From NCBI RefSeq assembly GCF_009914755.1, contig NC_060926.1: a stretch of 64,000 nt of DNA; one strand, given 5' to 3'. Below the pieces are notes generated by a model. That model was given only the letters and a program-made list of their open reading frames with translations, did no database searches and was not told the origin of the DNA. This document shows positions 29,120-42,282 of this stretch, piece after piece. This DNA is from the human T2T-CHM13v2.0 reference genome, Homo sapiens. Numbering within the stretch: position 1 is the stretch's first letter; the number at the start of each line of letters is the position of its first letter. A program made the translations under genes and the position numbers.

Positions 29120-29435
29120 TCACCCCGCCCCCACACATGCATCCCTCTCTCTGGCAAACAAAGAAACTGCAAACAAAGGAATAACTTGGCAAGTGCTGCT
29201 CTGTTTGAGAAAAACGAAGGGAGAGTTGCCCAGGCTAACTGAGTTCTCTCCACACCAACCAATCTTTTTGTTTTTCTCTCTCCATAAGATGTCTTTACGC
29301 TTTTCCACATTGGCTTAACCTCTACTTGTTGTCTGTGATTTTGCCCAAGTCCTGCGCTCACTATAAAGCCCTTCTTGGAAAGCAGGAGCCATGGACAATT
29401 ATGCTCCTTTGAACTTCTCAGTTCCTTTGAACTCG
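29120..29435 (+). promoter_or_regulatory. Candidate promoter/enhancer motif cluster
   Basis: GC box 29123-29131, GCAAACA x2, CCAAT 29259, MRE-like TGCGCTC 29353, TATAAAG 29362, STAT site TTCTTGGAA 29372, CCTTTGAAC x2 (29406, 29424); motif evidence only. Confidence 0.35.
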
Positions 29436-30259
29436 TCTCTCCCTCTCCCCTTAGAGCTTATCTTCTCAGCTCGATTCTAAGCTGTTTAAAGCAAGGAATG
29501 TGTTTATGTTCCGTTATAGCTTTTAAAATGTCTACCACGTAGTGGCATTTAGGAATTATTTGCTTTGTATTGTATTTTGAAGTCAACTAGTGTGATGCCT
29601 CCAGCTTTGTTCTTTTTGCTCAATATAGCTTTGGCTATTCCAGGTCTTTTGTGGTACCATACAAATTTTAGGATTTTTGAACATATATTTCCATGAAGAA
29701 TGTCATTGGTATTTTGATAGGGATGGTATTAAATCTGTAGATTGTTTTTGGGTAGTATGGACATTTTAATGATTTAATTCTTTCAATCCATGAACACAGA
29801 AAACCTTTTCACTGATTTATGTCTTCTTTAATTTCTTTCATCAATGTTTTATGGTTTTTGTTGTAGAGACCTTTTATCTCCTTGGTAAAGTTTATTCCTA
29901 ATTTTTTTGTAGCTATTGTAAATAAGACTTTTAAAATTTCTTTTTCAGAGAGTTTCCTCTTGATGTGTAAAAACATTTCTAAGTTTTGTATGCTGATTTG
30001 GTATCCTGAAACTTTATTGAGTTTATTATCTTGATCAAAAGAATAAAGCTGAAGGCATCACACTTCCTGACTTCAAAATATACTACAAAGCTATAGTAAC
30101 CAAAACAGTATGATGCTGGCATAAAAACAGACACGTAGACTAAAGGATCAATAGAAAGCCCATAAATAAACTCATGCATCTACATCCAAATCATTTTTGA
30201 CAAAGGTGCCAAGAATACACAATGAAGAAAGGACAGTCTCTTTAATAAATGGTTGTGAG

Positions 30260-30955
30260 CCAGTTAGAATGGTGATCATTAAAAAGTCAGGAAACAACAG
30301 GTGCTGGAGAGGATGTGGAGAAATAGGAACACTTTGACACTGTTGGTGGGACTGTAAACTAGTTCAACCATTGTGGAAGTCAGTGTAGCAATTCTTCAAG
30401 GATCTTGAACTAGAAATACCATTTGACCCAGCCATCCCATTAGTGGGTATATACCCAAAGGATTATAAATCATGCTGCTATAAAGACACATGTACACGTA
30501 TGTTTATTGTGGCACTATTCACAATAGCAAAGACTTGGAACCAACCCAAATGTCCATCAATGATAGACTGGATTAAGAAAATGTGGCTCATATACACCAT
30601 GGAATACCATGAAGCCATAAAAAAGGATGAGTTCATGTCCTCTGTAGGGACATGGATGAAGCTGGAAACCATCATTCTCAGCAAACTAACGCAAGGACAG
30701 AAAACCAAACACCACATGTTCTTATTCATAACTGGGAATTGAACAATGAGAATACTTGGACACAGGAAGGGGAACATCACACACCGGGGCCTATTGTGGG
30801 GTGGGGGAGGGGGGAGGGATAGCATTAGGAGATATACCTAATGTAAATGAGGAGTTAATGGGTGGAGCACACCAACATGGCACATATATACATATGTAAC
30901 AAACCTGCACATTGTGCACATGTACCCTAAAACTTAAAGTATAATTAAAAATATA
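30260..30955 (+). mobile_element. L1PA3-5-like 3' fragment with 16-bp TSD; carries ORF2p C-terminus (ORF 30443-30742)
   Basis: TSD aataaatggttgtgag at 30244-30259 and 30956-30971; translation 'YPKDYKSCCYKDTCTRMFIVALFTIAKTWNQPKCPS'. Confidence 0.97.
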
Positions 30956-31614
30956 AATAAATGGTTGTGAGAAAACTGGACATCATATGCAGAAGAATGA
31001 AATTAGACCCTTGTCTCACACCATATACAAAAGTTAACTTAGAATGGATTAAAGACTTAAATTTAAGAGCCAAAACTATAAACTTCTAGAATAAAACCTG
31101 TGAATATGGGCAACAACTTTGTGGATAAGACCTTAAAATCATAGGCAACAAAAGTGAAAATAAACAAACAGAATTACATCAAACTGAAAAAAAAAAAGTA
31201 TGCACAGCAAAAAAAAAAAAAATCAGTAGAGTGAAGAGACAACCTACAGAATGAGAGAAAATACATACATACATACATACCTCATAAAATACAAATTGCA
31301 TACATCAGATAAGGGGCTATTATCCAAAATATACAAAGAACCAAAACTACTCTATAACAAGGAAACAAATAACTCTATTAAAAAATAGGCAGAGAACTTG
31401 AAGAGACAGTTCTCAAAAGACATACAAATGGCCAACAGATATATGAAAAAGTGATCAACATTTCTAAGCATCAGAGAAATGAAAATAAAAATCATAATGA
31501 GATATCATTTTACCACTGTTAGAATGGCTATTATCAAAATGATGAAAGATAACAAGTAAAGATGTGGCTAAAAGGAAACCCGTATACACTGTTATTATTA
31601 GTGTAAATTAGTTA

Positions 31615-31793
<179 letters not shown>

Positions 31794-31962
31794 GAATTAT
31801 TACGTAATCCAGCAATGCCACTACTAGTTGTATACCCAAATGAATTGATATCAGTATGTTGAAAAGATATCTACTCTCCCATGTTCATTTCAGTCCTATT
31901 TACAATATCCAAGACATGGAAACAACCTAAGTATCCAACAATGGATGATTAGATTTTAAAAT

Positions 31963-31965
<3 letters not shown>

Positions 31966-32002
<37 letters not shown>

Positions 32003-32060
32003 TGTGTATAGATAGATACATAGAGAGAGAGAGATAGATAGACAGATAGATAGATAGAGA
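31966..32060. repeat. (TG)n followed by (GATA)n/(GA)n
   Basis: Directly visible. Confidence 0.95.
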
Positions 32061-32873
32061 GTATTCAGCCATTAAAAACAAAAACAGGAAATTCTTTCAT
32101 TTGCAACAACATGGATGAACCAAGAGGAGACTATGTTAAGTGAAATAGTGTCACAGAGAGACAGGGACAAAGAGACAAATAATGTATGATCTCAGTCATA
32201 CTTGATATCTGGAAGAGTTGACCTTATACAAGTAGAGAATAGAATGGTGGTTACTAGAGTCTGAGTGAGGTGTGGGGGAGGGTGACTGGGGAAAGAAGAG
32301 CTGTTGGTTTGTGAGTACAAAGTTACAATTGGGAGAAATAAGTTTTGAAGATCTTTTTGCACATTAGAGGGAATATAGTGATTAATAACATACTGTATAT
32401 TTTAAAATAGCTAAAAGAAAGGATTCTAAATGTTCTCACCACAAAGAAATGATAAATGTTTGAGATGCCAAATATGTTAATTATCCTGATTTGATTATTA
32501 AAAAAGTGTATCTGCATTGAAATGCATTGTACCCCATAAGTATATACAATTATTTGTCAATTAAAAATAAATTCTTAAAAAGTTATCTGCTGATAAAGAA
32601 GTTGCAGTTCTAACATTTACCCCAATCAACACTTTTCTTATAAACAGATTCCCAATTCCTATTCCCAGATGTGCCTAGCAGTGTTTCTGATATCTGTTAC
32701 TCTTAGGAGCACTGACCAGCTTCAGAGAAGGCAACTGCCTCTGTGGACCCAGGGAAGGAACAAGGGACTTGGAATGATTAAGAGCGGTAAGCTGTATGTT
32801 TCACACTGAGACAGAACATCAACACATAGCATCCCTAGGTTCTGAAATAGCCCTCACATACTCAGGTGTCTAT

Positions 32874-33278
32874 AGGGCGATAATATATTCCAATTTGTCT
32901 GGAACTGTCCCGGTTTTTCTCTTTTGTCTCAACGTGATTAGTTACAAAGACTTTCATGCTCAACATTGTCAGGTGTGGACATGACACATTGCTCCTGATG
33001 GAGGGGCTCCAGGCAGGCACCCCACATGGGTGAGGCTGGCAGGTGAGGGCTGTGGAGCTCTGGAGAGAGCATGGCAGGTCCAAAGAGGTTCCTGTCTATG
33101 ATTGCTACATGCAATTGTTGGGCCCGATGTTGTGAGATCTTTTTATGTTTTCAGAGAAGTCAAAAATTACACCTTCAAGTGTTGGGAACTAATTCTGTTA
33201 AAAGACTATTGTTTTGATTAAAAAAATTAAAAACTGTGAGGATCAGCTTTGGCTTAAAGGTGCTGGTTTAAAACTGTT
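32874..33278. mobile_element. hAT fragments: MER94/Blackjack-like end (about 32874-32920) and MER102-like (about 33000-33278)
   Basis: 'agggcgataatatattccaatttgtctggaactgtcccggtttt'; 'gggcccgatgttgtgagatctt...tcagagaagtc...gtgttgggaactaattc'. Confidence 0.6.
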
Positions 33279-33284
33279 CAGTAG

Positions 33285-33505
33285 AAAAATGAGATGACTA
33301 TACTTGACAATAATTGATTGTATTATTTTGAAATAGCTAGAAGACTTGGAATGTTCCCAGCACAAAAAAAAATGATAAATGTTTGAGGTGGTGAATATCC
33401 CAATTACCTAGCTTTGATCATTACACATTGTATGCTTTTATGAAAATGTCATATGCACCCCACAAATGTATACAATGATTAAATCCATATAAATTAAAAA
33501 TAAAT
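33285..33505 (+). mobile_element. L1MA5/6-like 3' terminus
   Basis: 'aaatgataaatgtttgaggtggtgaatatcccaattacc...gatcattacacattgtatgc'. Confidence 0.88.
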
Positions 33506-34749
33506 TTCAAAAATACCTTTTAAAAAGGTATTCTCTGTAAGGGACTACCTGGATCCTGGTCCTTCTACCCCTGAAGATGTCTCTCTATGAGCTTGGTTCA
33601 TTTTATTAAGGAAAAAATTAGGATTGGGGGTGGGTAAGAGGGTCTAAATCTTGGCTTTATTACTCACTAGCAGTGTAACCTCAGAAAAACAGTCACAAAC
33701 TTATGCTGTCTCATCTATAAAATAATAAACATGGGCTAGATGCCACCTAGATGCCTCTAAGCTCTAAGAGTCTGTAATTCTTTCATTCTGACCTTAACTC
33801 TTGCTTTTGTTTTGTCTAACACATTCATCATCCACGCTGAGAATCCTAAAAGGGTGTTAGTTATATTTTCTGTTCCTTAAAAATGAAATTTGTTCTCCTA
33901 TTCATTTCTCAGGTGTCTGGCTCCTAATAGATGTACTACTAATACTGATTACCAATAATTTTAGTACTGAGTAGTACTAAAATATCACCCTAAAGCAGAA
34001 TATATAACTCTATTAATTTTTAACCCAATAATTGAATGTCCTTCCCTTTGTATGTATTATTACTATTATTACAAATTACACATAGGCGAAAATTTGAAGA
34101 AAACATAACAACTTTTTACTGGATTTGTGTTAGCTAGTGAGATTATGGACTTTTCTTTCTACTTATCTGTTTTTCTAGTTTTTGGATTTTTTTTAATGTG
34201 ATTACATTGCTTTAATAGTAAAATTATTAAAATACTATTTTTAATAATAAAAATAATATATAAATGATCATCACAGATAAGTAAATAGAAAAAGTACCAT
34301 AAAGGACATGCAGCAAACTACAAATTCTAGTTACCTTGTTTGAGAGAAATGAGATTTAGGAGGGAGATATGAGCATGATAATTTAGTTCCCTACATACTT
34401 TTGTATTATTTGAAATTTTTATACAGAACATTTATTCATGCATTATTTATGAACTTAAAATGAATTAATCAAATTTTAAAATGAATTATTTACCTTGCGT
34501 TTAGAGGAACTGAGTCTTTCTTGATTGTAGATTGCTTTGTCAGTTTCCTGCCAAACAGAACCTTATGTGTCGGCCCCAGTTTCTACATCCTATGAAAGAC
34601 AGGCTGGGGAGGGTATGTGACTTGTCCAAGTAGTAAAGAATGTTGGAAACTGTGTCTGGGCTAAAATCCGGTACTTGCCTAAACTGAGTCTGCAGCATTT
34701 TTATTTGGCTTTTTAAAACATCTTTCTGAATTAGCATGCATTTGTGTTT

Positions 34750-35280
34750 TTAAAATCTTTGATTCCTTTCTGTCCTGAAGTCTACAAATCTTCCTCTAAT
34801 GTGACTGTAAGAGATAAGGGGAAAACATCAATTTCCTAACACTTTTGTTTAGAAAAGAACATACATGATTAAATAGATAATTATTATTATTTTTCCTTTT
34901 GGGGGGAAGGTACAGGGAATATAGATAACAGTTGGATTATTCTTTGAATATACATCATAATTTACTTCCTTACATAAATTCAACAGATCCATGTCTGTGT
35001 GAAGCAAAATACATAGGAAGTTTGTTGCTTGCCATTTGTCTCTCTTCAAGTCCAAAAGAGCCTAGCTGGAATTGCTCCTCCCAAAAGCAAACAGCGTTTT
35101 TTTTTTTCCGAAGCAGTCTGTTTCTTGCACAAATCTTTCCAAAAAGAGTCATCTATTGTTTCTTCCCTTGAAAGTTACAAAAGCATCTTTCTTAACCGCC
35201 ATATTTTTACCTTCAATGTAGAGCCAAAGATAAATCTTATTTGGAATATAATTTTTTCTTTGAAGACTATGCACTGCATT
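34750..35280 (-). mobile_element. Decayed LINE ORF2 N-terminus (APE endonuclease remnant)
   Basis: Collinear motifs WLYIEGKNMAVKK (35226-35188), FVQET (35133-35119, same frame), WEEQFQLGSF/WT, FLCILLHTDMD, NPTVIYIP. Confidence 0.6.
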
Positions 35281-35299
35281 TAGTCTGGGGAACTTGGAC

Positions 35300-36861
35300 A
35301 CTACCACGACTAAATCATAACTAGAAAGATTTGAAGAGTAGCAAAGATTTCTGGTTTTTTTTTCCTTAAAACAATAATCATGCTTGCATTTCTTTAACTT
35401 TCATCCTCAACATCAGGGCTTTTGGATCTTCAGTTTCTGTGAAACCTGTTGCTCCTCTGTCTACAAATGCAGTTTGGGCTTTGGCTTTTGCCTAGGTGAA
35501 ACTACTGATAAATATGTATCTAGTATTTGTTCATGGGAAGTTTCAATCTGCCCCTTGATTTATTTCCCTTGAAAACATCCTTCATCCTTCCCCTTATGCA
35601 ATCAGCCTTCACTAACACAATCCCACCTGGGCCTCCCAGAGACGTGGGACCCACATGTTTGACGGGTGAAGGCCTCTCCTGCCAATTTCCTGTGGCTACT
35701 TCTCTCCTTCCTCTCATTGTTCCTTTCTTCTCTTCCTTGTTCCTCCTCCTCCAGCTTCTACATCGAATCATCTCCAACGCTGCCTTCTTTTCTCATGTAC
35801 TTTCATGGGACTGCTTCATTATCTGGAACTGAATTCTCTGCCTGCTCTGTTTAAACTTGTTTTGAGTCTGGGACAGGTGAGGATGCCTCCAGCTCCTTAT
35901 CCTCTTCTTCTTGTCTCCAGCCCCAGGGCAAATGCTTCTCTTCTTTGCAAAGGTTGCACCATCCCCTCTGCCCACAATTGCTACCTTTGTGTTCAGAATC
36001 CAAGCACCTGAAACATCAGAGCAGGCTGCATGCCATGCTAATTTTGCCTGTGTGGATTAAGACATTATAATGATCCTGCGGCCGTGCCCTGTGACCTCCA
36101 CAGCCAAGGTTCTGCTCTGAAGCCATGGTCCAGTGGCATCAGAATAGCCCTACTTAAGAATAGGACACCAAAGGCATTTATAAACCCCCTTTCTGGACTC
36201 TACAATCTCTGATTCACATCTGAATTCTTCAGGGAGGAACACATAGCTATCCCTTAAATGTATACACAAAGCACGCTGATAATTAGAGTTTTCACTCTGT
36301 AATTTCAGTATAGGCTAGCGTCAGCTCATTTTGGATCCAATTGTTAAATTTGAAGGAATTTTATGAATCAGTTCATATAATGTTGGTAGCTTGAAATTGG
36401 CCATGGGGGGAGTGTTTACACTATTGAAGTTGGCAATTCCACTAACTAAGCCATTTTTTTTTTTTTTCTCCTGGAGAGACAATTATTAAACATTTACCAG
36501 TAGGCCAACGGCAGGGCTCTGATGAAAACTTGAGTGAAAAAAGAAACAAAGCAAAACAAAAATCACATAAAATGTGACAATTCAACTTTGTGAACATTTT
36601 CTGAGTCTTCTATCCAAACATCTTCAGGGACCTTACGAGACCCTGCTCTTTGGATGGGTTTTTCTTGATTTCTCTTTCTTCCTAATATCTGGTCTCTTCT
36701 GCTTCTAACATTTTAGCAAGAACAAGCACACAACCAAAAATAAAGTTACTAGCGATAGGTATGGAATATTGCCTTCTTTTTTCCATAGTTTATTTTCTAT
36801 TTTGCTTCTTCATCTTAGGGCTTCCATTACAGACAGTGGCTGAGGTTGACTGGGCTGCCAT
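35300..36861 (-). pseudogene. Decayed ZCCHC3-like / Tx1-clade ORF1p with CCHC zinc knuckles and acidic tail, interrupted by MER63A
   Basis: ATG in strong context at 36861 (MAAQST); SNFIFGCVLVLAKMLEAEETRY (36750-36685); DSYVFLPEEFRCESEIVESRKGV (36251-36183); CFRCLDSEHKGSNC-GQRGW-CNLCKEEKHLPWGW (36015-35917); multiple stops and frameshifts. Confidence 0.75.
36306..36510. mobile_element. MER63A (hAT-Blackjack)
   Basis: 'aattgttaaatttgaaggaatttt', 'gttggtagcttgaaattggccatgggggagtgtttacac', 'ttaaacatttaccag'. Confidence 0.88.
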
Positions 36862-37239
36862 AGTGTATCAGGAAAAATGATGTCATTGTCTGTAACTTGC
36901 CTATGACCCTGATTCTGCAGCTTGTCACCTCTCCCTTCAGATCTTCCAGTGTCTAGATGACAGATCTTTTCCCTGGCCATTTTCCAGAATTTCCACAGAA
37001 GCCTCTTCATTGCAATTTCATCACTCATACAGGTCATTTTGGGAGGCCTGGATTGAGCGAGAAATAATTCAAGGTGCTTTGACACCAAGAGATCGTGTCC
37101 TCAAAGAACCTTAATCAGTGGCACAACCAGGACTAGAACCCAGGTCTCCTGAAACCTGAACCTAGTATTCTCACTGACATACAGGCCTGCTTATTTTAAT
37201 GCTGACATACCTGTAATTCATTCTGCTTTAGTTTTCTTA

Positions 37240-37602
37240 AACTTAAACCAGGTGGTGATTAAAACCTTACTCAAAAAGTTCACACAAGAGAAAAGGAAAT
37301 GAGAATTTATTGGTTCACACCTGGACAGTCTTGATTCAAATTCTGAAGTAGCATTATCACAAATCTTTCTCTCCATCCCAAAATCTGCTTTCTTTCCTCC
37401 GCGTGTCCCTTCCTTTCTAACCAGGCTCCTCCTGTGTGATGGTAAACCTAGGAGCATCCAGCTCACATCCTACAGGTTGAGAAAGTCCAATAAAAACAAG
37501 CAAAAGGCTCTGGAAGGGTCTGCTTAGTCTGAAATATTAGGGTGCTGCAATCAAAGGCTGGAAAAGAAATAATGAACCGGCAAACACAACAGATGTCTGA
37601 TA
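37240..37602 (-). mobile_element. MLT1J/I-like MaLR LTR (MIR fragment just left, about 37085-37180)
   Basis: 'gaatttattggttcac', 'accaggctcctcctgtgtgatggtaa...ccagctcacatcc', 'caacagatgtc'. Confidence 0.55.
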
Positions 37603-38417
37603 GAGCCCCTAATGGGGAAGAAAGAAAAGTTACATCTGCCATTTACACTGTCTGTGATTGTGCATGGAGATGGCACTCAACGTGAGGAGTCCCACCATGT
37701 CTTCCAGCTTCCTGGAGCATGGGAAGCCAGACTGATAATTTCAGAGGTGACTCAATCAGCATAGTGAAAGCATTAATGTTGGCAGACAGAAAACTCATAT
37801 TCTCCCAGTTTCCTTGTGTCAGAGAAATCAAAAACAAATGGTAGCTTTCTTAACTCTTGACATTTTAGTTGAAAAATATTTCCTTCCAACTATCCTTTCT
37901 TTTCTTTTAATATCCCATTACCTCATTTTTTAACAATAATTTTGGTGGGAATGGACAAAACACCTGAGAGTGGCTCTAGGCCGACAGGATGATGAAAGAA
38001 ATGACACTGTGGGTCTCTCCTATTCCTAATTTCCATAACTTTTAAGAGCACAGGCTGCTGACACAAAATGATACAAGTAGGAAAGTTGCTTGGAGCACAA
38101 AAGTTCAATGCAACCAAAGACCTGATAGACTACCCCTGGCTCAGCCTGTCCCAAATCAGTATGTTTTCCATAATGTGATCTTTCATTTGGCTTCTTTTCT
38201 CAGTACTGAACTGCTTTCTCCTGTGTAATTTAAGCATCAAATATGTATCATGACCCACCCTGAAGCACTGTCTCCTTGGATGACAAAATAATTTAAAAAT
38301 AAATTGCATTGTAAAGAAAAAATATTGTTAAATAATGGGGTACCCTTGAATAATAGGATACCAAAATGTGGTGTGTACATGTGGAAATGTTATGTCTTAC
38401 TCAACGTGTGTAGAGCA

Positions 38418-38635
38418 CTAGTTTTCCTGAAAAGACTCCAGAATACACTAAATCAGGAACTCTGAGGGTGAAACCCAACACTGTGTGTTTTAACAAGACC
38501 TCTAGCTGATGCAAGCTAAGGTTCCAGACCCACTGGGTTTTATTTTTAACTTTCCTAAGCTTCAATGTCATTGTCTATAACATGTGAGTAGCACCTAATT
38601 TTCAGGGTTTTCATAAAGATTAAATTTGACCAAAA
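38418..38635. mobile_element. MER5A fragment plus MIR fragment
   Basis: 'aactctgagggtgaaacccaacactgtgtgttttaacaag'; 'cttcaatgtcattgtctataa...aagattaaat'. Confidence 0.65.
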
Positions 38636-39602
38636 TCATTATTGTTATTATTAATATTAATAACAAAATAAGAATGCATGTGAACATTTTTTAGATATAC
38701 ATATGATGGCATAAAATGCAATATCTTTCCTTTTTCCATAAAAGAGGCAGTTGCAGGAATTCAACATTGAGTGACAGCATATAATAATCAAATGCTCAAT
38801 GAAAGATGGCCATAAAGTTATCAGTCCAGTCCCTACTCCCTTGGCAACTGTACCTGCTACTACTACTCTTACTAAATTCATTTACTAAATTTACATTTTA
38901 ACAGAGTTAGGTAAAGTAAAATCTTATATTTTAGTTCCAGAAATACTTTTCCCAGAACAAGATAGAGCTTGAATTAAGTACAGCATTATTCTGCTCAGAG
39001 GAAGGATAATGAACAAAAATATTTCATGAATACCTTTTCCCAAATAGACATAATCACATTTCCATTCACTCTTAGGATTCTTTGAATCTAGGAATTAGTT
39101 TCCAATTATCTGTTATCTCCCAATAGAATCCTATAAAATAGATGAAATTCTTCTTGCCACGATTAACTTTCATTTCATCTCAAAATGTAATGGAGAAACT
39201 TTCATTCTAAATTCTTGCTAAATTTATTTTGAGATTTATAGCCCGGGATAAAAGGAATGTGAGAGCCATGGCTCCAGAACGGGGATTGGATCCACATTAG
39301 GTTCCAATTAGACACCTGAAAATTCATCTTTCAGAGATGAAGCATCCTCAGACACCAGCTATTCAGGAGGGAAACCCATTCTTATTTCCCCCCCCTCAGG
39401 AAAGAAATAGAATTTTTAGTTGCTTAGTGATTTGTGAACTCCTGAAAAATTGTAGTGACACCTGAAGAGGACTCAGCTCAGTTCAAGTGACCTCAGCACA
39501 AGGAGCAATGAATTGGGATTTATGCTTTCCTATTCCTTTCATCTCAGACAATTGTGTTTACCTGAAGTACCAAATACCAAACAGTGGAAGCAGAGGGCAG
39601 AG

Positions 39603-40330
39603 CAATGGTTTTCCAGTCAGCTGAGATTCCAGTTTAGCAGGCATAGGGACCTAGTCATCTGCATTTTACCAAGCACCCTCTCTTCCCTAGTGGTTCTAAC
39701 CCAGGTCTGCACATCTCATTTTCAGAAACACTGCTAGAAGGAAAAGACAACAGACTTTTGAATTAGAAAAACCAGAATTGGAAGTTCAGCTCTGCCATTT
39801 GCTAACTGGTAGATTTGGATGGCTTGCTTAGTATCTGAGGTTGTTTCCAGGTCTATAAAATAGAATTAGCATTAACAATGACTTTAGTTGTTGTTCTGAC
39901 AAACATATGAGATAATACATGCCATGTGCCTAGCATATATAATATGTACTCAATAAATACTTGTCTCATTTCAAGAGGCTTTTAGGAATATAAGTTATAG
40001 GAAGTGATGTCAGGAAGACATGAACACACACACACACACACATACCACCTTTCTGTGATTTTTCCAAATTTATAATAAAAATAGATATTCATAACATACT
40101 GCTGCTTACTCTTACTCTTTTACTATTTGTACTATTGTCTTGCATTATTGTGTAATGTTTAAACAATAATGTGTTTATGTGTCTGTGGGCACTGTGAGTC
40201 TTTTCTACACAACCAGCTTGCAAACTTTCAGGTAGCAAGGGCCGTTTGTTGCATTGTCAGAAATATCTGACACACAGTGACAGTTTCCATCACAGCACTA
40301 TGCATGTCAAAGATGTTCAATAAGTATATA
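39603..40330. mobile_element. MER5/MER117-like MITE (39603-39735), MIR (39745-39970, plus), L2 3' end (about 40130-40330, plus)
   Basis: 'catctgcattttaccaagcaccc'; 'cagctctgccatttgctaactg...gtgcctagcatatataatatgtactcaataaat'; 'agatgttcaataagtat'. Confidence 0.65.
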
Positions 40331-42282
40331 CTCAGTCAATGCATTTGTTGCAATGAATAATGCCAAATTGTTCGAGAATTGGGCAACACTCCTGTCAACT
40401 CCAACTGGATCAAATAATCTTGCCTTAGTTGAAGCGTGGTCTGAGGTGAATTTAAAGATTTTACAATGCTTCTTATTTTTGAAAACAGAATAAGAAGAAT
40501 GATAAAGAATTAATAATGCCTTGTGTTTCATATAGTTCTTAACATTTTCAACTGTCCTTCAGAACTATCTTATGTTCACCATCTAAAGGATCAGTTACCT
40601 GGTAAGTTGATGAAATCATAATATTATAAAATGTTGGGGTGTTCGTTTTAAAAATCCTTGGATTGATACAAGCAACCCCTGAAACAGGGAAACATACCCT
40701 GACATATTCCAAAGAAATCAAGCAAAGGGAAATGTATATATTTTTTAACTGCAGTGGTATTGCCTTTTTTGTGGGTTATAAAAAAAGCAAATAAACATTG
40801 CAAATTATCTGCAGCAGCAACTTCATCCTGATTCTCTGCAATCTGGGCTGCATGTACACCCCATCATCGTTATGCTGTATCCTTAACACAGAAATAGCCA
40901 AAAGCCCTTTCGGCGTCTCTGTTCAGACCTCTAAGACCGTTCTACCCGCCTGGGTCAGAAGTTGAAATATATGAACAATCTTTCTGTGCTTGAACTTGAG
41001 AGAAAAATCAGTCATCTGTACATGATCTGTGTTAGAGTAAAATGTAATTTTTCCCTCTGACAATGTGTTTATGGTTGTTAACTTATCTTGATTGCCAAGA
41101 GAAATCTGTTTTGTGTGGCAGGCTTTTCTGACTTAAAATGTCAGATGCCACCCCTACCCCCCACCCCATATCCAGCCACCCTTTCAACTAATTCACAAAT
41201 TGACTTGACTCTCAGCTAGGTTAAAAAAATAATTTCCTGAAAATTAAAAGTCTGGCACAATACTGTACTAAAAGTCCATTTATCTTGTCTATTTTTATAA
41301 AGCTTCATTGCAGCATCTGGCAAAATGCCCACTTCTAGTAACAAAGGTCCCCAAGGACATTTGGCAAGAGCGACTTTTCTTCTAAGACCCTGAAAATGAT
41401 CCTGGACTTCCTAACGTATGATTTTAAAAGCTTGCAATTAGGATTTGTAAGAGGATCCTGTGTATGATTTGTTAAAGGTGAAGATTGAGTGAAAATGCTG
41501 TGGAGATAAAGTGACTAAAATACTTTGGATGTGTCTTTGTCATCTCTGTTAGGAGTGCCACCTCTTCGTTGATCACATAAGTCAGGGACTGAATGAAAGC
41601 TCAGGATTTTGATATTATTATGAAAGATAATGGCTAAAGATTATCTAGACGAGGCAGCACAATGATTCACTCTTGTTTAATCAACTACAACTTCTACTAA
41701 GCGCTCAATATAAACCAGACTAATCTTTCCACCTTCCTGCAGGAAACTGCAATGGCACCTGTTTATTCAGCTCCCCTGGTATTGAGTAAATCCTTCCTTT
41801 TCTTCCCTCCTTCTCCCACCAATCAGTTGAGGGAAACGTTTTCAGCATTTCCAATCTAAGACTGATTGGGCTTTCCTGTTGATGTCAAGTTGAAGCATTC
41901 CATTGGGAAAGCAACCTCAAGACTGCTGACTTTTTTGTGGCCCTGAGCTAACCAAATGATTGCAGCAAATGCACCCCTCTTTCAGGCTATGAAAGACAAA
42001 TGGCTTGTGAATTGCTTGTTTGGAATGTTTCGTGAAGAAATGACCATTTGTGTTGAAGAAACTGCAGACGTATTTCACCCAATTTGATACAAGGTTTCCT
42101 CTTTTTTTGACAATAGCTCCACTTACCAGATTCTTCTTTAAGCAAGATTTAGTCTAATGCAAAGCCACTTTGTCAGTTCGGTGACACCCGAATCAATAGC
42201 CATTTTGCCTCAATGATTTACCCTCAATGTCATTTCATTAACGAATTCTTACACTGAAACCATTGATACCAAATTCCAAAGA

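What the first reader, a model, noticed from the sequence alone, without database searches (positions are those of the whole stretch)
34750..35280. Collinear APE-endonuclease motifs downstream of the zinc-knuckle ORF
Seen on the minus strand. One frame gives WLYIEGKNMAVKKDAFVTFKGRNNR*LFLERFVQETDCF, comparable to L1 TLNVNGLNSPIKR...CIQETHL; the Tyr codon TAC is one change from the catalytic Asn. After a slipped A11 run come WEEQFQLGSF/WT (cf. Tx1 W..W..G.SFWS), FLCILLHTDMD (cf. GVAIL....DF) and NPTVIYIP (cf. TIxNIYAP). A weak VTLEEDL near 34790 may be a decayed xILGGDFN. Each motif alone is weak; their order, approximate spacing and position after ORF1 are the evidence.
Basis: partly seen in the sequence, partly recalled or inferred. 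Interest (0 to 1): 0.7.

Follow-up and report, generated by a model that had tools for sequence, protein, structure and literature searches.

The report
Decayed ZCCHC3-like retrotransposon fossil
This stretch of human chromosome 2 holds a broken, very old copy of a sequence related to the anti-retrotransposon gene ZCCHC3, one of about twenty such copies scattered through the genome; the DNA behind it is possibly (about even odds) the remnant of a retrotransposon's DNA-cutting enzyme, which would mean ZCCHC3 itself likely came from an extinct jumping gene.

Summary
The endonuclease (EN) reading is only marginally above chance. Best-path frameshift scoring against L1 and Tx1-type EN profiles did not beat shuffles (35-286 of 400-500). 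Summed-path and motif-chain scores gave p about 0.005-0.06 against real genomic tiles, and simulated decayed ENs put the likelihood ratio at only about 3-5. The test is underpowered at this age, so EN is neither shown nor refuted.

The upstream element is real. It has a double zinc knuckle with ZCCHC3's exact spacing. An RNA-binding-domain remnant scores 0 of 500 shuffles and 0 of 848 tiles against a profile built without the window. A 500-base purine-rich tail follows.

A ZCCHC3 search found 21 further decayed, dispersed copies. All are closer to their own majority sequence than to ZCCHC3, and about eight have a similar tail. One chrX copy has EN-like motifs at the same place; the family as a whole shows no EN or RT signal.

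Verdict: a dead ORF1-type retroelement fossil, EN remnant about 50%. The more interesting result is the family and its bearing on ZCCHC3's origin.

The parts
36313..36507 (.). Multi-copy repeat, younger insertion at the 5' edge of the relic; family not identified
   Evidence: 39 other genomic matches listed (40 of 296 candidates scored), 70-90% identity, all to this part of the query
36035..36322 (-). Decayed, internally shortened ZCCHC3-like RNA-binding-domain region (ORF1-type); best blocks start at 36322 and 36181
   Evidence: profile from 21 other relics, knuckle columns excluded, 13.4 bits, 0 of 500 shuffles, 0 of 848 tiles; block scores 17.3 and 16.8 bits
35932..36015 (-). Double zinc knuckle, C-x2-C-x4-H-x4-C-x5-C-x2-C-x4-H, same spacing as ZCCHC3
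   Evidence: E=2e-4, 13 of 37 identical, no gaps; only match in the window, none in its reversal, about 0.3 expected per genome for this exact spacing
35415..35915 (-). Purine-rich tail (0.65), likely the decayed acidic/basic C-terminus of ORF1
   Evidence: 5 of 508 window tiles reach 0.62; similar tails in about 8 of 21 other relics; coding origin is inference
35054..35229 (-). Candidate endonuclease N-terminal motifs I-III (blocks at 35229, 35139, 35083), frameshift at the A11 run; possible, not shown
   Evidence: p=0.005 against 656 tiles, best of four variants; 2 of 100 true decayed ENs score this well
34782..35022 (-). Weaker candidate endonuclease motifs IV-VI (blocks at 35022, 34938, 34805); spacing off by -10 and +12 codons
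   Evidence: (six-block chain p=0.061)

Best explanation
The locus is a broken, decayed copy of a ZCCHC3-related sequence (RNA-binding region, two zinc knuckles, purine-rich tail) that likely came from an extinct L1/Tx1-clade retrotransposon, and the stretch at 34750-35280 is possibly the remnant of the first half of that element's endonuclease. Shown: the relic, its stops and frameshifts, and 21 dispersed sister copies. Inferred: the source was a LINE with a type I ORF1 (RNA-binding domains plus CCHC knuckles) followed by ORF2; it inserted by target-primed reverse transcription very early in mammalian history or before (sister copies are 30-47% diverged from their majority); it has since decayed, lost internal pieces and been interrupted by younger repeats. 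It is predicted to encode nothing today.
For: Knuckle spacing identical to ZCCHC3. Knuckle-free family profile hits the predicted place, 0 of 500 shuffles and 0 of 848 tiles. Summed-path score top of 636 tiles with 3 of 4 profiles. 21 of 22 loci examined are decayed ZCCHC3-like copies, leave-one-out 96-289 bits, each closer to the family majority (0.53-0.70) than to ZCCHC3 (0.43-0.55). RRM plus CCHC is the type I ORF1 layout seen in Tx1-clade elements (PMC5203782, passages).
Against: 22 of 636 real tiles match the summed-path excess. No family-wide EN signal: mean excess 4.6 sense against 4.3 reversed; Fisher p 0.03-0.47 over 16 relics. L064-window DNA alignment is not significant (77 of 500), and adding two more relics to the L064 model weakens the window's score to p=0.062. 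No cognate RT found behind the window or in 14 downstream stretches, though power was low. The one Tx1-type ORF1 in hand did not match ZCCHC3 profiles, so the ZCCHC3-Tx1 link is not shown here. The window relic is weak: absent from the genome searches, z>5 with 0 of 21 relics pairwise, not above background with strict best-path gaps.
Confidence: 0.5

Rival explanations
1. The relic comes from a non-autonomous, ORF1-only retroelement (like HAL1, half-L1), or this copy lost everything after the tail; the EN-like motifs are chance matches in AT-rich flanking DNA.
For: Best-path EN scores at chance; no EN or RT signal across the family; downstream sequences of 231 relic pairs align no better than reversed controls apart from younger repeats; ORF1-only derivatives arose several times in mammals (PMC5753468, passages).
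Against: Chain and summed-path scores at p 0.005-0.06; EN-like motifs at the same position in L064; the negative tests had weak power (57 of 96 at 37% mismatch, 16 of 96 at 45%; RT 14 of 30 and 0 of 30).
Confidence: 0.33
2. The relic and its sisters are processed pseudogenes of an ancestral ZCCHC3 mRNA; the downstream DNA is decayed 3' UTR or flank, with no endonuclease.
For: ZCCHC3 is the only intact relative found; ZCCHC3 matches the family majority at 143 and 163 of 200 first and second codon positions; many copies look like neutral decay from one source.
Against: No close (young) copy appeared: best hits are 23-57% identical. ZCCHC3's 3' region is purine-poor (0.26-0.46) where about eight relics and the window are purine-rich. 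Several copies show a third-position deficit, which suggests more than one constrained source.
Confidence: 0.12
3. Both the knuckles and the EN motifs are chance patterns in ordinary intergenic DNA.
For: No Pfam hit; not found by genome searches; strict best-path family score not above background tiles; unsoftened family profile ranks it 4th of 636 tiles.
Against: Exact knuckle spacing expected about 0.3 times per genome, plus an independent RNA-binding-domain hit at 0 of 848 tiles and a purine tail at 5 of 508 tiles.
Confidence: 0.05

Closest known systems
ZCCHC3 (human chr20; Pfam PF23057, PF23058, PF00098)
   Same: RNA-binding region followed by CCHC knuckles with identical spacing of the last two
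   Different: Broken by stops and frameshifts, about 400 bases where ZCCHC3 needs about 640, AT-rich, and followed by a purine-rich tail instead of a stop and a purine-poor 3' region
L1/Tx1-clade LINEs with type I ORF1 (RRM + CCHC) and APE endonuclease
   Same: Layout of ORF1-like region, low-complexity tail and candidate EN start; the Tx1-type element L035 has a similar tail before ORF2 (PMC5203782 passages)
   Different: EN only marginal, no RT found, no poly(A) end or target-site duplication identified; L035's ORF1 did not match ZCCHC3 profiles
Known human Tx1 traces: MARE6 and the L1-Tx1 protein fossils of Frith 2022
   Same: Very old, fragmentary Tx1-class sequence in the human genome (PMC5753468; PMC9004415)
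   Different: Those shown in the passages read are pol matches at other places; whether MARE6 or the online fossil list covers this locus or family could not be checked
HAL1 (half-L1) and L1TD1
   Same: HAL1 encodes ORF1 only; L1TD1 is a host gene derived from L1 ORF1 (PMC12129022 passages)
   Different: Both derive from mammalian L1, whose ORF1 is type II without knuckles; this family is ZCCHC3-like with knuckles

Membership tests
L1/Tx1-clade LINE | ORF1 with RNA-binding domain(s) and CCHC knuckles (type I) | tested here: met
   met as a decayed ZCCHC3-like region
L1/Tx1-clade LINE | ORF1 homologous to Tx1 ORF1 proteins | tested here: inconclusive
   only one invertebrate Tx1-type ORF1 available; no PF23057/PF23058 match and hhalign E=0.73; no vertebrate Tx1 ORF1 retrieved
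L1/Tx1-clade LINE | APE endonuclease at the start of ORF2 | tested here: inconclusive
   chance level by best path, p 0.005-0.06 by chain and summed path; low power
L1/Tx1-clade LINE | Reverse transcriptase downstream of EN | tested here: inconclusive
   25.8 bits sense against 23.0 reversed in 30900-34700; power 14 of 30 at d=0.55, 0 of 30 at d=0.75
L1/Tx1-clade LINE | Dispersed multicopy family | tested here: met
   21 of 22 loci examined on 14 chromosomes
L1/Tx1-clade LINE | 3' tail and target-site duplication | tested here: inconclusive
   no flanking repeat stood out among short chance-like pairs; element ends unknown
L1/Tx1-clade LINE | RT-based phylogenetic placement in Tx1 | not testable with these tools
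   no RT sequence recovered
ZCCHC3 processed pseudogene | Closer to ZCCHC3 than to other copies | tested here: not met
   sister copies: 21 of 21 closer to the family majority; an ancestral ZCCHC3 source is not excluded; window copy too decayed to place
ZCCHC3 processed pseudogene | ZCCHC3 3' UTR sequence after the stop | tested here: inconclusive
   no alignment to ZCCHC3's 3' region (best z=4.1), but relics do not align to each other there either; base composition differs
HAL1-like ORF1-only element | No ORF2 in any copy | tested here: inconclusive
   no family-wide signal but L064 and the window are marginal positives

The most novel reading that the evidence does not exclude
ZCCHC3, a restriction factor against L1, is a domesticated ORF1 of an extinct Tx1-like LINE family that was active in early mammals; at least 22 fossil copies of that family survive in the human genome, and this locus and the chrX copy still carry the start of its endonuclease.
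Probability: 0.4. Interest if true: 0.72.

Novelty: new member of a known kind. Interest (0 to 1): 0.45.

Why it matters
One more dead LINE fragment matters little: Tx1-class fossils are already known in the human genome. What could matter is the family. ZCCHC3 suppresses L1 retrotransposition and is described as gag-like or Air1/2-like (PMC10351740, passages), and the 2025 paper's passages on domesticated LINE genes name L1TD1 and BCNTP97 and never mention ZCCHC (PMC12129022). An endonuclease remnant attached to a ZCCHC3-like ORF1 would be direct genomic evidence that ZCCHC3 came from a LINE, a second case beside L1TD1 of an ORF1 turned host gene. The 21 loci make that testable with existing mammalian alignments.

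Tried and rejected
Library searches of the raw frames: Pfam 0 families for 6 frames, PDB 0, homolog search 0 of 1227 candidates, Rfam 0 in 30000-42000. Getting vertebrate Tx1 proteins failed: ZCCHC3 against longer proteins 0 of 539; the L1 EN searches listed only close L1 relatives, 46-97% identical to the human query; viral contigs gave nothing; phages gave one exonuclease III. The EN profile therefore rests on five Tx1-type loci, plus one further L1-type locus and human L1 in the mixed version, from eukaryotic contaminant contigs. A 40-bit EN-profile hit ending at 35671 was rejected as purine composition (136 of 300 shuffles). The top genomic hit of a Tx1-type EN query (chr3) is an ordinary L1. 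The ORF2 hit behind the chr8 relic and the one near window 29250-29900 read as mammalian L1. A DNA HMM from a plain alignment of the relic cores did not find the window copy (E=0.25). Locus L078 was dropped (22.5 bits against 21.5 reversed). L062, L069, L026-L030 and the hits without loci were not tested as relics. An iterated post-tail model did not converge. 36313-36507 was excluded from the ORF1 because it is a separate repeat. No structure was predicted: the frames are too broken to give a meaningful model.

Full report
Observation. The window is human chr2. The stretch 34700-36300 has no other DNA-level match in the genome. Translations with stops read as X matched nothing in Pfam, PDB or the protein database, and BLASTP against human L1 EN gave E=0.8.

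Method. I wrote a frameshift-aware DNA-to-profile aligner with a neutral-decay codon model. EN profiles came from 150 L1-like fragments and from L1/Tx1-type elements on eukaryotic contaminant contigs found with a three-motif pattern (13 loci, 7 distinct); 'Tx1-type' is my label from their layout, not a database name. No vertebrate Tx1 could be obtained, which is the main limit of the test.

Endonuclease test. Best-path scores were at chance: 161-286 of 500 shuffles with the L1 profile, 35-51 and 75-133 of 400 with the Tx1-type and mixed profiles. Summed-path scores did better, 1-5 of 300 shuffles over eight settings for 34700-35300 and 4-19 of 300 for a wider window. Real DNA is a harder control: 22 of 636 tiles showed the same excess, 10 of them reversed sequence, although only 3 reached the same absolute score; no single motif carries the signal. 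Searching the whole 350-1450 bases after the knuckles, its four variants gave p=0.005, 0.061, 0.061 and 0.043 against 656 tiles. Power is poor. Held-out ENs decayed to 27, 37, 45 and 52% mismatch were detected 94, 57, 16 and 5 times of 96 by best path. They scored as well as the window in 2 of 100 (blocks I-III) and 29 or 15 of 100 cases (six blocks, 37 or 45% mismatch). That is a likelihood ratio of about 3-5: a nudge, not a demonstration.

Upstream element. At 35932-36015 two knuckles have ZCCHC3's spacing. The pattern occurs once in the window, never in its reversal, and about 0.3 times per genome by residue frequencies, more if other spacings are allowed. ZCCHC3's C-terminal half found 30 matches among 38 candidates, 12 besides ZCCHC3 at E<0.003. 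Of 22 loci examined, 21 are decayed copies with leave-one-out scores of 96-289 bits. A profile from these, with no window sequence and no knuckle columns, scores 36035-36335 at 13.4 bits, 0 of 500 shuffles and 0 of 848 tiles; a wider window gave 0 of 500 and 1 of 424. Against this: the window copy was not among the genome-search hits, reaches z>5 with 0 of 21 relics pairwise, is not above background with strict gap costs (4-9 and 33-43 of 500), and ranks 4th of 636 tiles with the unsoftened profile but 1st with three others. It is a weak, internally shortened member. 36313-36507 is a separate multicopy repeat.

The family. All 21 copies are closer to their leave-one-out majority (0.53-0.70) than to ZCCHC3 (0.43-0.55); ZCCHC3 matches the majority at 143, 163 and 67 of 200 codon positions. 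Pairwise identity by codon position is 0.53, 0.53, 0.47, against 0.40, 0.43, 0.39 in a single-source simulation aligned more crudely; some copies have a marked third-position deficit and others none. The window and about eight copies (my reading of the table) have purine-rich sequence after the knuckles; ZCCHC3 has 0.26-0.46 there. Downstream sequences do not align between copies except through younger repeats. No EN enrichment was seen over 21 relics plus the window and ZCCHC3 (mean 4.6 sense, 4.3 reversed), nor in 16 relics by chain score (Fisher p 0.033, 0.29, 0.47, 0.35). RT scans of 14 downstream stretches and the window found one strong hit that reads as mammalian L1 and one unexamined weak one (L088, 34.9 against 25.9), with power of 14 of 30 and 0 of 30. 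One copy, L064 on chrX, has an EN-start match right after its tail (23 bits, 0 of 60, best of 20 relics; L044 also 0 of 60) and later motifs in order (p=0.020 in one of four variants, 0.08-0.43 in the others). Its DNA aligns to window 35265-34923 in motif register but not significantly (77 of 500). A model from L064 plus EN motifs scored the window at p=0.011, L058 at 0.011 and L044 at 0.023 among 18 segments; DNA alone gave 0.16, motifs alone 0.32, the reciprocal test 0.064. I chose those anchors after seeing both sequences, and adding L058 and L044 lowered the window to p=0.062.

Mechanism. Shown: a broken ZCCHC3-like sequence with dispersed sisters. Inferred: a LINE source with type I ORF1, insertion by target-primed reverse transcription (established for L1-clade elements), then neutral decay. 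That ZCCHC3-like proteins are ORF1s of vertebrate Tx1 elements is recalled, not tested; the one invertebrate ORF1 in hand did not match. With a prior near 0.25 that this copy keeps EN and a likelihood ratio of 3-5, I put the EN remnant at about 0.5. Rivals: ORF1-only element or lost ORF2 (0.33), retrocopy of ancestral ZCCHC3 (0.12), chance (0.05).

What is known. Tx1 traces in human are known: MARE6 (PMC5753468, passages) and 12 further pre-amniote L1-Tx1 fossils (PMC9004415, passages; its supplement had no hit for Tx1, ZCCHC3, EPHA4 or PAX3; its online list and Dfam could not be seen and may already cover this locus). Type I ORF1 is RRM plus CCHC and fits Tx1-clade elements in non-mammalian animals (PMC5203782, passages). 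ZCCHC3 restricts L1 and is called gag-like and Air1/2-like, with no mention of Tx1 or domestication (PMC10351740, passages; PMC9580041, listing and start of abstract only). PMC12129022 (passages) names L1TD1 and BCNTP97 as domesticated LINE genes and has no 'ZCCHC'. PMC4340606 lists 'Zcchc3/Mart3' once (passage); I recall that Mart3 is Zcchc5, so this is likely a slip. Searches for ZCCHC3 with Tx1 (0 papers), domesticated, non-LTR/RRM, pseudogene, origin, exapt and co-opt (listings only) showed no title or abstract start describing this family or a LINE origin; the library lacks most subscription papers.

Verdict. Observation partly confirmed, interpretation partly supported. New member of a known kind; interest 0.45, carried by the relic family and its bearing on ZCCHC3's origin rather than by the EN motifs.

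Noticed in passing
L044-L046, L050-L071, L082 (21 loci on chr2, 3, 4, 5, 7, 8, 9, 10, 11, 12, 13, 14, 18, X): A dispersed family of decayed ZCCHC3-like copies, 30-47% diverged from their majority and closer to it than to ZCCHC3; a lower bound, since only 38 candidates were scored.
   Followed up: partly
L064, G000:C23 about 146,599,900-146,600,500 (- strand): Sister copy with endonuclease-like motifs in order directly after its purine-rich tail; the best candidate in the family for an attached ORF2 start, marginal statistics.
   Followed up: partly
window 36313-36507: Multi-copy repeat (70-90% identity to many genomic sites) not covered by the listed masked stretches; family not identified.
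   Followed up: no
window about 29250-29900 (- strand) and 30389-30742 (+ strand): Ordinary mammalian L1 ORF2 C-terminal fragments.
   Followed up: partly
L031, L035, L037, L038, L040, L042, L043 (contig CBDAPN010000007.1): A contig filed in a bacterial MAG holds seven near-identical two-ORF non-LTR elements 8-20 kb apart; likely mis-binned eukaryotic DNA with a repeat-targeting Tx1-type element. Six other MAG contigs (L032-L034, L036, L039, L041) also carry eukaryotic LINEs.
   Followed up: no
L088 (G000:C4:116577800-116581000, - strand): Weak RT-profile score (34.9 bits against 25.9 reversed) about 2-4 kb behind the chr4 relic; alignment not inspected.
   Followed up: no
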